A program made the translations under genes and the position numbers. A stretch of 64,000 nucleotides of DNA from Escherichia coli. Its GTDB lineage: Bacteria; Pseudomonadota; Gammaproteobacteria; Enterobacterales; Enterobacteriaceae. The stretch lies in the NCBI RefSeq assembly GCF_022846255.1, contig NZ_AP025682.1. One strand, written 5' to 3'. The notes under the pieces are model-generated. The model was not told the DNA's origin, did no database searches, and saw only the letters and a list, made by a program, of their open reading frames with translations. Shown piece after piece: positions 11,289 through 12,641 of the stretch; the first letter of the stretch is position 1, and each line of letters starts with the position of its first letter.

Positions 11289-11671
11289 AATTCGGTTACT
11301 CCTTTACGAACGTTTTCGATATCGCTTTGCGTACCCATGAGTTCAAAGCGGTACAGCCACGGCACGCCGCATTTCCGGGCAATCACATCTCCGGCGCGGC
11401 CATATGCCTCACCAAAGTTGCGATTACCCGAAGCAATAACGCCGCGCAGCAACGCCCGGTTATGCTCGTCGTTTAAAAAGCGAATGACCTGTCGTGGCAC
11501 CGCGCCAGCCGTACCGCCGCCGCCGTAAGAGGGCACGATCAGGATGTAAGGCTCGTCTACCTGAATCCGTTCCCGCTCATTGAGCGGGATGCGCACCGCG
11601 GGCAGCCCTAAACGTTCGATAAAACGCTGCGTATTTTCGGAGCTGCTGGAAAAGTAGACGAGCTGGCTCAT
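11261..11671 (-). CDS. nrdI: Flavodoxin-like NrdI (136 aa)
   Basis: Translation recognised; overlaps the nrdE start by 28 nt and nrdH by 4 nt. Confidence 0.95.
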
Positions 11672-11913
11672 GCACTGGCCGCGTGTGGCGCTGGATGCAG
11701 ACGATTGATCATGTCCGGGCGGAAACCAGACCAGCTAAGATCGCCTGCAATCACAACCGGCAACTGACGAAAGCCCTGAGCACGCAGCGCTTCTGCCGCT
11801 TCAGGAACGCGATCGACATTAATCATTTCAAAATCAAAGCCCCGGTTTTCCATCGCCCGTTTAGTGGCGTGGCACTGAACGCAATCGTTACGAGTGTAAA
11901 TAGTAATGCGCAT
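11668..11913 (-). CDS. nrdH: Glutaredoxin-like NrdH (81 aa)
   Basis: CVQC redox motif in a thioredoxin-sized protein; first gene of nrdHIEF. Confidence 0.95.
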
Positions 11914-12017
11914 GATTCGTATTTCCGTTTAAAATGAAGATACGGCGCGATGATACGCGTCGGGTTGTCTCTCTGTTGATACAGAGATACTAGATGTAGT
12001 TGAAAAAAGATTCAACC

Positions 12018-12033
12018 ACACAATATATAGCAA
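12018..12033. promoter_or_regulatory. Putative NrdR box in the nrdHIEF promoter
   Basis: ACACAATATATAGCAA, about 105 bp upstream of the nrdH start, matches the 5' 13 positions of the NrdR-box consensus as I recall it (acaCwAtATaTwGtgt). Confidence 0.35.
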
Positions 12034-12103
12034 ATAGTGGTCGAAATTACCCTGGGTATGAGCGTGACGGGGTAGGGGGATTTTTGTGATTCACCAGGCA
12101 AAA

Positions 12104-12132
12104 AGAAACCCCGAAGCCAGGCTTCGGGGTCA
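12104..12132 (-). terminator. Intrinsic terminator downstream of ygaM
   Basis: Hairpin AACCCCGAAGC-CAG-GCTTCGGGGT followed by a U-run on the minus strand, 30 bp after the ygaM stop. Confidence 0.6.
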
Positions 12133-12160
12133 AAGACGCGTATTTATTATCATTATTGCA

Positions 12161-12490
12161 CTACGATTTGCGCATGCTTAACAGTGCGCCGATAAAAATA
12201 CCAACCGCAGCTGCTGTACCCACGCTACACCAGGGTCTTTCACGAACAAAAGAATCCGCGCAGCCAACGGCATCACGCGCGGCTTGCTGGACGCGAGTAC
12301 GACCATGCATTCGCGCCCTGGTTTCTTTCAGTAGAGCCTGCGCTTTACTACGAGCGGCTTCGGCTTCCCCTTTGGCGTCGCTGCCCCAGGACTTCAATAC
12401 AGATTCGAGACTGTCAGCTAATTGATTGACATCATTCTGGATATCCTGCACGCCATCATCAACGTCGTTGCGGTTCGGTCGGTTAAACAT
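12161..12490 (-). CDS. ygaM: ElaB-family ribosome-associated membrane protein YgaM (109 aa)
   Basis: Translation recognised; start set at MFNRPNRNDV..., 4 codons inside the ORF-track start. Confidence 0.85.
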   Translation of the reverse strand: MFNRPNRNDVDDGVQDIQNDVNQLADSLESVLKSWGSDAKGEAEAARSKAQALLKETRARMHGRTRVQQAARDAVGCADSFVRERPWCSVGTAAAVGIFIGALLSMRKS

Positions 12491-12641
12491 ATGATCCCCC
12501 ATTAGAATTCGATGTAATTTTCAGTGTAGACCATAATTTTCTTAACTGAGGTTCATCGCGGCTTTATGGACTTTTCTGAAAGCGTTGTGAATGCGCAATC
12601 AGGTAAGGTAGGCCCGCGGTTGATAATAACGAGGATCAAAT

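What the first reader, a model, noticed from the sequence alone, without database searches (positions are those of the whole stretch)
11996..12033. Palindrome and NrdR-box-like element in the nrdHIEF promoter
Upstream of nrdH lie a perfect 6-6-6 palindrome GTTGAA-AAAAGA-TTCAAC (11999-12016) and, overlapping it, ACACAATATATAGCAA (12018-12033), which matches most of the NrdR box consensus as I recall it. nrdHIEF is known to be controlled by NrdR and Fur; the palindrome does not resemble a Fur box and may be a site for another regulator.
Basis: partly seen in the sequence, partly recalled or inferred. Interest (0 to 1): 0.25.

Follow-up and report, generated by a model that had tools for sequence, protein, structure and literature searches.

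The report
Known nrdHIEF promoter; palindrome is incidental

Summary
The window is E. coli, and its ygaM-nrdH intergenic region differs from K-12 at 3 bases, all far from the finding. nrdH lies on the minus strand.

They are adjacent, with a 1-nt gap, not overlapping.

**NrdR box.** ACACAATATATAGCAA (12018-12033) is the published NrdR box 1. A 57-bp oligo used to measure E. coli NrdR binding (Kd about 130-138 nM) is identical to window 12038..11982.

**Palindrome.** It spans 11999-12016, which is -36 to -19 from the inferred start site.
- Its left arm is G plus TTGAA of the -35 hexamer TTGAAT.
- Its right arm is the last two linker bases plus CAAC of NrdR box 2.
- The -10 hexamer TAGTAT sits inside box 2.

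**Tests of the symmetry.**
- Across 55 distinct Enterobacteriaceae promoters the -35 arm and the box 2 bases are nearly invariant, while the inner right-arm bases are only 51-58% conserved.
- The palindrome is perfect in 10 of 55, against 6.9 expected from column shuffling.
- Perfect 6-6-6 palindromes occur 31 times in this window.

Fur-like and Fur ChIP-exo sites lie elsewhere. The published IscR site overlaps box 1 and the -35. This is already known and of low interest.

The parts
12018..12033 (-). NrdR box 1 (TTGCTATATATTGTGT on the nrdH strand). Position -53..-38 from the inferred TSS.
   Evidence: Matches the consensus at 13 of 16 positions. Box limits come from the published 57-bp oligo and from the box 1 mutant and duplicated oligos. 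The oligo is identical to the window. Core positions C4, A6, T7, A8, T9, T11 and G13 are invariant in 55 distinct orthologous promoters.
12003..12017 (-). 15-bp linker between the NrdR boxes (GGTTGAATCTTTTTT). It contains the -35 hexamer.
   Evidence: A 15-bp distance is stated in PMC12176259. Linker length is constant in all 71 loci. Positions 1-7 (GGTTGAA) are 89-100% conserved, positions 10-11 (TT) 96%, and the remaining positions 44-65%.
11987..12002 (-). NrdR box 2 (CAACTACATCTAGTAT), -22..-7. It contains the -10 hexamer.
   Evidence: Published box limits and the box 2 mutant oligo, which changes CAAC to GAAT among other bases. Mutating either box lowers NrdR affinity 530- to 1000-fold. 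Positions 2-16 are 87-100% conserved in 55 distinct orthologs.
12010..12015 (-). -35 hexamer TTGAAT (inferred)
   Evidence: There are 17 bp between it and TAGTAT. TTGA is 93-100% conserved. The published reporter series changes spacing only upstream of TTGAAT and keeps TTGAATCTTTTTTCAACTACATCTAGTAT intact. PMC8561392 states that the nrdHIEF -35 lies inside the IscR site. The exact hexamer marked in the published figures could not be read.
11987..11992 (-). -10 hexamer TAGTAT (inferred)
   Evidence: Invariant in all 55 distinct orthologs. The published box-mutant reporter changes it to TAATAT and gives the highest GFP signal, 117, against 51 for wild-type boxes in a nrdR deletion strain.
11980..11980 (-). 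Inferred transcription start (an A, 7 nt after the -10), giving a 67-nt 5' UTR
   Evidence: Inferred only from promoter geometry. No open TSS table containing it was found.
11999..12016 (.). It consists of the G before the -35, TTGAA of the -35, promoter spacer, and CAAC of NrdR box 2.
   Evidence: It is perfect in 16 of 71 loci and 10 of 55 distinct sequences. Arm 1 is GTTGAA in 44 of 55, while arm 2 has 19 variants.
11995..12020 (.). Extended imperfect inverted repeat, 10-6-10 with one mismatch
   Evidence: The single-strand DNA fold is -5.7 kcal/mol, z = -4.2. At least 9 of 10 pairs form only in the window, L001 and L004, the last two being Escherichia loci. Orthologs average 6.76 pairs, against 6.74 for column shuffles.
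12011..12037 (-). Candidate IscR type II site; the register is uncertain by 1-2 nt. It overlaps NrdR box 1 and the -35.
   Evidence: PMC8561392 states that nrdHIEF is activated from a type II site with the -35 embedded in its right half. The best hit to WWWWCCNYANNNNNNNTRNGGWWWW is 12036..12012, 13 of 16, in the top 0.1% of window positions. The T-R-T-G-G right half is 96-100% conserved. Calibrated on the sufA and ydiU promoters.
12031..12065 (.). Published Fur ChIP-exo peak P87 for nrdH, mapped onto the window
   Evidence: Supplement of PMC10164565 gives 2798593-2798627. The coordinates are NC_000913.2, checked through csrB and the K-12 nrdH position. An 11 of 19 Fur consensus match lies at 12033-12051.
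11886..11915 (.). Published Fur ChIP-exo peaks P88 and P89, over the nrdH start codon
   Evidence: Fur consensus matches of 11 of 19 here, and 11-13 of 19 at the same position in ten other genera. GGAAATACGAATCATG is nearly invariant.
12139..12157 (-). Best Fur consensus match in the intergenic region (AATAATGATAATAAATACG), just after the ygaM stop codon, at -177..-159
   Evidence: 14 of 19, tied for best in the whole 64-kb window. No Fur ChIP-exo peak listed near nrdH maps here.
11668..11913 (-). nrdH coding sequence, first gene of nrdHIEF
   Evidence: ORF list and RefSeq annotation of the identical K-12 and UPEC loci.
12107..12131 (-). ygaM intrinsic terminator, the upstream limit of the nrdH control region in this haplotype
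   Evidence: Terminator scan: 11-pair stem followed by a T run.

Best explanation
**What it is.** This is the core of the known sigma-70 promoter of nrdHIEF, together with its NrdR operator.

**Layout, reading toward nrdH on the minus strand:**
- NrdR box 1 (12033..12018)
- a 15-bp linker that carries the -35 hexamer TTGAAT (12015..12010)
- NrdR box 2 (12002..11987), which contains the -10 hexamer TAGTAT

**How it works.**
- An NrdR tetramer loaded with ATP plus dATP binds both boxes. This is shown in the literature on this exact sequence.
- In doing so it covers the -10 and brackets the -35, which represses the operon. This step is inferred.
- IscR activates from a type II site that overlaps box 1 and the -35. 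That the site exists and embeds the -35 is published; its exact register here is inferred.
- Fur acts from flanking sites.

**Why a palindrome appears.** It has no function of its own.
- GTTGAA is fixed by RNA polymerase, and possibly by IscR.
- AAC is fixed by NrdR box 2.
- The three inner right-arm bases (TTC) happen to complete the symmetry in Escherichia, Salmonella and some relatives.
For: 1. The window is E. coli, and the promoter is identical to K-12. The only 3 intergenic differences are at 12155, 12117 and 12056.
2. The published 57-bp nrdHIEF oligo equals window 12038..11982. EcoNrdR with ATP plus dATP binds it with Kd 138 and 130 nM. Mutating box 1 or box 2 lowers affinity 530- to 1000-fold.
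3. Replacing box 2 by a copy of box 1 destroys the right arm, yet Kd stays at 213 nM. Consensus boxes joined by an unrelated synthetic 15-18 bp spacer bind at 45-91 nM. NrdR therefore does not need the native linker or the palindrome.
4. TTGAAT, 17 bp, TAGTAT is the layout that the published reporter series preserves.
5. In 55 distinct orthologous promoters, GGTTGAA is 89-100% conserved and box 2 positions 2-16 are 87-100% conserved. The inner right-arm bases are only 51-58% conserved. Variants of the left arm (GTTGAT, GTTGCA) are not compensated in the right arm.
6. Perfect palindromes number 10 of 55, against 6.9 +/- 2.0 under column shuffling (P = 0.10). Mean complementary pairs are 4.45, against 4.43.
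7. The centre of the palindrome (12007.5) is 2.5 bp from the centre of the NrdR box pair (12010).
Against: - The TSS and the exact -35 and -10 were not read from any mapped data.
- The 10-6-10 extension gives a single-strand fold z-score of -4.2.
- Inverted repeats are in excess over Markov expectation across the window as a whole, so chance is not a complete account of inverted repeats in general.
- Linker positions 10-11 (TT), at the centre of the palindrome, are 96% conserved. None of the named sites explains this.
Confidence: 0.9

Rival explanations
1. The palindrome is an operator for an additional, unidentified dimeric regulator that recognises TTGAA-N6-TTCAA and competes with RNA polymerase at the -35 and spacer.
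For: Perfect 6-bp arms, extendable to 9 of 10 pairs. The position over the core promoter is typical of repressors. It is perfect in Escherichia, Salmonella, several Citrobacter, Yokenella and Trabulsiella. nrdHIEF responds to several stresses.
Against: - Conservation is asymmetric: the left arm is invariant, while the inner right arm is 51-58% conserved.
- There are no compensatory changes.
- The frequency of the perfect form is no higher than column composition predicts.
- Palindromes of this size are common in the window.
- The spacing does not fit FNR (TTGAT-N4-ATCAA, 7 of 10 off-register), CRP (6 of 10) or Cra (10 of 16).
- No paper in the library other than the NrdR binding study contains this sequence.
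Confidence: 0.04
2. The AT-rich linker, with its T6 tract, is a bending or flexibility element that helps the NrdR tetramer kink the DNA between its two boxes. The symmetry reflects that structural role.
For: NrdR sharply kinks DNA in the S. coelicolor cryo-EM structure, as cited. The linker is AT-rich in all orthologs, and TT at linker positions 10-11 is 96% conserved.
Against: - EcoNrdR binds consensus boxes joined by a GC-containing synthetic spacer (TTGGATAGCGTGAGC) at least as well as the native site.
- The nrdDG and nrdAB linkers in the published oligos share no such motif.
- The centre of the palindrome is offset 2.5 bp from the dyad of the NrdR site.
- An A/T-rich spacer is equally expected for any sigma-70 promoter.
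Confidence: 0.05
3. The right arm, read on the plus strand (TTGAAA, 12000-12005), is the -35 of a divergent antisense promoter whose -10 is the TATATA core of NrdR box 1. NrdR would then control transcription in both directions.
For: TTGAAA matches TTGACA at 5 of 6 positions. TATATA lies 18 bp downstream on the plus strand (sequence).
Against: - The promoter scan found no plus-strand site here.
- TATATA lacks the conserved final T.
- In the island haplotype and in most genera box 1 reads CCCATATC, which has no -10-like hexamer.
- The first base of the CAA that would give TTG on the plus strand is only 58% conserved.
- There is no gene to express in that direction, only the ygaM terminator in antisense.
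Confidence: 0.02

Closest known systems
NrdR operator of E. coli K-12 nrdHIEF (tandem NrdR boxes; Rodionov & Gelfand 2005; Torrents 2007; Rozman Grinberg 2025, PMC12176259 and PMC12051234)
   Same: Identical sequence over the whole 57-bp fragment used for binding assays. It has two 16-bp boxes, a 15-bp linker and the same position upstream of nrdH.
   Different: Nothing differs within the operator. The window differs from K-12 only at three distant intergenic bases (12155, 12117, 12056).
IscR type II activated promoters (PsufA, PydiU; PMC8561392)
   Same: The -35 hexamer lies at the right edge of a CCxYA-N7-TRxGG-like site. The right half, ATTGTGTGGTTGAA, resembles the sufA right half, TTTGCTGGGTTGAA, at 10 of 14 positions by my own comparison of the sequences.
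   Different: The left half-site is weak in the K-12/window haplotype (TGCTA instead of CCxYA). The register relative to the -35 is 1 nt off the sufA arrangement for the best-scoring hit. The site was not verified against the published figure.
S. Typhimurium nrdHIEF promoter (Panosa 2010, PMC2892513)
   Same: Same pair of NrdR boxes, -35 and -10. The palindrome is also perfect in the two Salmonella loci (L012, L025).
   Different: The Salmonella Fur box is reported 309 bp upstream of the TSS. The best Fur match in L012 is at -394 from the ATG. Box 1 is the CCCATATC variant.

Membership tests
NrdR operator (tandem NrdR boxes) | Two 16-bp palindromic boxes matching acaCwAtATaTwGtgt, with C at position 4 and G at position 13 | tested here: met
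   Box 1 matches at 13 of 16 positions. Box 2 matches at 11 of 16 by my own count against the same consensus. Both have C4 and G13, and both fit the published search expression C.[AT].A[AT].[AT].G.
NrdR operator (tandem NrdR boxes) | Boxes separated by 15-16 bp (about three helical turns centre to centre) | tested here: met
   The linker is 15 bp and has the same length in all 71 orthologous loci.
NrdR operator (tandem NrdR boxes) | Located in the promoter of a ribonucleotide reductase operon, overlapping RNA polymerase elements | tested here: met
   It lies 74-120 bp upstream of the nrdH ATG. Box 2 contains the inferred -10, and the linker contains the inferred -35.
NrdR operator (tandem NrdR boxes) | Direct, nucleotide-dependent binding by NrdR | not testable with these tools
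   Taken from the literature on identical DNA: Kd 138 nM with ATP plus dATP, no binding detected with ATP alone, and loss of binding on mutating either box.
Fur box | Match to GATAATGATAATCATTATC or arrays of NATWAT hexamers | tested here: not met
   The best overlap with the palindrome is 9 of 19, a score that 4.8% of all window positions reach. The best site is 12139-12157, at 14 of 19. The ChIP-exo peaks map to 12031-12065 and 11886-11915.
IscR type II site | CCxYA-N7-TRxGG with AT-rich flanks, and the -35 embedded in the right half in activated promoters | tested here: inconclusive
   A 13 of 16 hit at 12036..12012 covers box 1 and TTGA of the -35. The left half is poor in this haplotype. 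Only the left arm of the palindrome lies inside it. That the site exists is published, but its coordinates were not readable.
Independent palindromic operator of a dimeric regulator | Symmetric conservation of both half-sites, or compensatory change, across orthologous promoters | tested here: not met
   Arm 1 is GTTGAA in 44 of 55 sequences, while arm 2 has 19 variants. Mean pairs are 4.45, against 4.43 for shuffles. Perfect forms number 10, against 6.9 +/- 2.0.
Sigma-70 promoter | -35 and -10 hexamers 16-18 bp apart, with a mapped start 6-8 nt after the -10 | tested here: inconclusive
   TTGAAT, 17 bp, TAGTAT matches the consensus hexamers at 8 of 12 positions, below the scan tool's threshold of 9. 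Both hexamers are conserved and consistent with published constructs. No TSS data were obtained.
FNR/CRP-type site | TTGAT-N4-ATCAA or TGTGA-N6-TCACA spacing | tested here: not met
   The palindrome is TTGA-N8-TCAA, two bases too wide. Best scores are 7 of 10 (off-register) and 6 of 10.

The most novel reading that the evidence does not exclude
In Escherichia the inverted repeat has grown to 26 bp (10-6-10 with one mismatch, 12020..11995), centred in the core promoter. It might be a lineage-specific operator for an uncharacterised regulator of the manganese-dependent reductase. Alternatively it might be a supercoiling-sensitive structure that tunes access of NrdR and RNA polymerase.
Probability: 0.04. 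Interest if true: 0.4.

Novelty: already known. Interest (0 to 1): 0.06.

Why it matters
It matters little. The region is one of the best-characterised NrdR operators, and this check adds no new regulator.

The useful outcome is negative: a striking palindrome in a crowded promoter can arise from two independently constrained elements, here a -35 hexamer and the edge of an NrdR box. A conservation test that looks for symmetric or compensatory change separates that case from a real operator.

Minor added value: a coordinate map that places the NrdR, IscR, Fur and RNA polymerase elements on one sequence, and the note that E. coli carries two very different alleles immediately upstream of, and within, NrdR box 1.

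Tried and rejected
- **Fur box at the palindrome.** Rejected: 9 of 19.
- **FNR, CRP, Cra and DnaA-box readings.** Rejected on spacing and score. TCAACCACA matches the DnaA box at 6 of 8 positions, a score that 1.7% of window positions reach.
- **IscR type II 26-mer placed over the palindrome (12003-12028).** It scores 15 of 24 but lacks the CCC half-site and puts the -35 in the wrong part of the site compared with sufA and ydiU. Rejected in favour of the register over box 1.
- **Divergent promoter on the plus strand.** No site passes the scan.
- **RNA element.** The palindrome is upstream of the inferred TSS. Rfam finds nothing at gathering score in 11650-12200.
- **Structure in the 5' UTR.** The fold z-score is -0.08 and RNAalifold predicts no consensus structure.
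- **Mapped TSS and footprints.** Torrents 2007, Martin & Imlay 2011, Nesbit 2009 and Rajagopalan 2013 are not held. No TSS was found in the Cappable-seq supplements, and the Conway 2014 and Beauchene 2015 supplements are not held. A search for 'nrdHp' returned nothing.

Full report
**Identity of the locus.** The 247-bp intergenic region (11914-12160) is 100% identical to E. coli strain 7/2. It matches 5,421 of 5,426 complete E. coli genomes. It differs from K-12 MG1655 at three bases only (12155, 12117 and 12056), none near the finding. nrdH is on the minus strand (11913..11668), followed by nrdI and nrdE. The upstream gene is ygaM (12502..12161), with an intrinsic terminator at 12131..12107. 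K-12 literature therefore applies directly.

**The observation.**
- Both strings are at the stated coordinates. They are separated by base 12017, so they do not overlap.
- The 16-mer matches the NrdR consensus ACACWATATATWGTGT at 13 of 16 positions. Only three sites in the window reach that level, against 0.46 expected.
- A perfect 6-6-6 palindrome is unremarkable. There are 31 in the window, against 16.8 +/- 4.6 in Markov-1 simulations, and 368 with loops of 0-12 nt.
- The repeat is in fact longer: TGTGGTTGAA-TCTTTT-TTCAACTACA, 12020..11995, with 9 of 10 pairs and a single-strand fold of -5.7 kcal/mol, z = -4.2. Repeats of that quality still occur 93 times in the window, against 29.6 expected.

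**The NrdR box.**
- Rozman Grinberg et al. (PMC12176259) measured E. coli NrdR binding to a 57-bp nrdHIEF fragment: five flanking bases, box 1, a 15-bp linker, box 2, five flanking bases. That oligo is identical to window 12038..11982 on the minus strand.
- Kd is 138 nM with ATP plus dATP, and no binding is detected with ATP alone.
- In PMC12051234 the wild-type Kd is 130 nM, and mutating box 1 or box 2 lowers affinity 530- to 1000-fold. The mutant oligos confirm the box limits.

**The palindrome.** Read toward nrdH, the segment is GTTGAA-TCTTTT-TTCAAC.
- TTGAAT (12015..12010) lies 17 bp upstream of TAGTAT (11992..11987). This predicts a start at the A at 11980 and a 67-nt leader.
- The promoter scan tool did not list this pair, because it matches the consensus hexamers at 8 of 12 positions and the threshold is 9.
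- Three lines of evidence support it:
  1. Both hexamers are essentially invariant in orthologs.
  2. The published reporter series that varies NrdR box spacing inserts or deletes bases only upstream of TTGAAT and always keeps TTGAATCTTTTTTCAACTACATCTAGTAT. Its box-mutant construct changes TAGTAT to the more consensus-like TAATAT and gives the highest expression: 117, against 51 for wild-type boxes in a nrdR deletion strain.
  3. PMC8561392 states that the nrdHIEF -35 is embedded in the right half of an IscR type II site.
- On this map the palindrome occupies -36..-19. The left arm is the G before the -35 plus TTGAA. The right arm is the last two linker bases plus CAAC of NrdR box 2.
- I did not see mapped TSS data, so the hexamers and the TSS are inferred.

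**Conservation test.** A scan of species-representative genomes with NrdH returned 80 loci across Enterobacteriaceae. Of these, 69 could be anchored; with the window and one UPEC locus this makes 71 sequences, 55 of them distinct.
- Linker length is always 15 bp.
- GGTTGAA is 89-100% conserved, and box 2 positions 2-16 are 87-100% conserved.
- The three inner right-arm positions are T 51%, T 56% and C 58%.
- The left arm is GTTGAA in 44 of 55 sequences, while the right arm has 19 variants. Where the left arm changes (GTTGAT, GTTGCA), the right arm does not compensate.
- The palindrome is perfect in 10 of 55 distinct sequences: Escherichia, Salmonella, some Citrobacter, Yokenella, Trabulsiella and one Enterobacter.
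- Shuffling right-arm columns among sequences gives 6.9 +/- 2.0 perfect forms (P = 0.10), and mean complementary pairs of 4.43 against 4.45 observed.
- For the 10-bp arms the means are 6.76 observed and 6.74 shuffled. Among the 55 distinct sequences, at least 9 of 10 pairs form only in the window and two Escherichia loci, L001 and L004.

There is thus no sign of selection for symmetry. Every conserved base already has a job in the -35 or in an NrdR box.

**NrdR does not need the palindrome.**
- Replacing box 2 by a copy of box 1 removes the right arm and leaves Kd at 213 nM.
- Consensus boxes joined by an unrelated synthetic spacer bind EcoNrdR at 45-91 nM for spacers of 15-18 bp.
- The centre of the palindrome (12007.5) is 2.5 bp from the centre of the box pair (12010).

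**Other regulators.**
- Fur: the best overlap with the palindrome is 9 of 19.
  - The best consensus match in the intergenic region is 12139-12157, at 14 of 19, tied for best in the window.
  - Published Fur ChIP-exo peaks for MG1655 map elsewhere. Their coordinates are NC_000913.2, which I checked through csrB and the K-12 nrdH position. They fall at 12065..12031, just upstream of box 1, and at 11915..11886, over the start codon.
- IscR: the pattern WWWWCCNYANNNNNNNTRNGGWWWW has its best hit at 12036..12012, at 13 of 16, in the top 0.1% of window positions.
  - I calibrated the pattern on the K-12 sufA and ydiU promoters.
  - This hit covers NrdR box 1 and ends in TTGA of the -35.
  - The right half-site T-R-T-G-G is 96-100% conserved, including the two G's that belong neither to the NrdR box nor to the -35 hexamer.
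  - The register is uncertain by 1-2 nt, and the left half is weak in this haplotype.
  - Only the left arm of the palindrome lies within this site.
  - The overlap with box 1 implies that NrdR and IscR compete for it. That is my inference.
- FNR, CRP, Cra and DnaA-box readings fail on spacing or score.
- The only paper in the library that contains the palindrome sequence is the NrdR binding study.

**Within E. coli.** The 45-bp core (11978-12022) is identical in 4,500 of 5,172 matching genomes, and 672 differ at about one base. In the one variant example examined, the change is G to A at box 1 position 15, not in the palindrome.

**Verdict.** The NrdR reading is right, and it is already textbook knowledge for this operon. 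The palindrome is real but is a by-product of the -35 hexamer and NrdR box 2. Novelty: already known. Interest: low.

Noticed in passing
window 12018-12075; L001 2477-3010: E. coli carries two sharply different alleles of the roughly 45 bp upstream of, and including, the distal half of NrdR box 1.
- The K-12/window type has ygaM adjacent and box 1 TTGCTATATATTGTGT. A full-length match is found in 4,032 of 5,421 genomes.
- In the other 1,389 genomes the match covers only the nrdH-proximal part. The two examined (UPEC132, RM14516) carry an island type: a two-gene insertion (a PLP-dependent aminotransferase family protein and a carboxymuconolactone decarboxylase family protein) between ygaM and nrdH, with box 1 starting TTCCCATATCTTGT.
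- The island-type box is the form seen in most other Enterobacteriaceae.
- Identity resumes abruptly inside box 1.
- The island type also moves the strong Fur-like site next to ygaM about 1.9 kb away from the promoter.
   Followed up: partly
window 11886-11929 (minus strand): GGAAATACGAATCATG and the first codons of nrdH are almost invariant across about 70 Enterobacteriaceae loci. That is more conserved than the rest of the leader. The stretch carries an 11-13 of 19 Fur consensus match at a fixed position in every genus checked. It coincides with Fur ChIP-exo peaks in MG1655 and W3110, which suggests a conserved Fur operator over the ribosome binding site and start codon.
   Followed up: partly
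window 11943-11962 (minus strand; +19..+38 of the inferred transcript): There is a conserved GC-rich inverted repeat in the nrdH leader, CGACGCG-TATCAT-CGCGCCG. It is 76% paired across 69 sequences, and a few sequences show changes on both sides (for example CGATG...CATCG in L039 and L074). However, RNAalifold predicts no consensus structure, and the covariation score is not above the controls. It may be a small 5' hairpin or a DNA site.
   Followed up: partly
window 11970-11987: A second inverted repeat, TCTCTGT-ATCA-ACAGAGA, spans the end of the -10 and the inferred start site. It is present in the Escherichia loci and not in other genera.
   Followed up: no
window 12139-12157: AATAATGATAATAAATACG lies directly after the ygaM stop codon and before its terminator. 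At 14 of 19 it is tied for the best Fur consensus match in the whole window. K-12 has A instead of T at 12155, which makes its match slightly weaker. None of the Fur ChIP-exo peaks retrieved around nrdH in the MG1655 table maps to it.
   Followed up: partly
window 12007-12008 (linker positions 10-11): The two T's at the exact centre of the palindrome are 96% conserved in 55 distinct orthologs, while their neighbours are 44-65% conserved. The -35 hexamer, the NrdR boxes and the candidate IscR site do not explain this.
   Followed up: no
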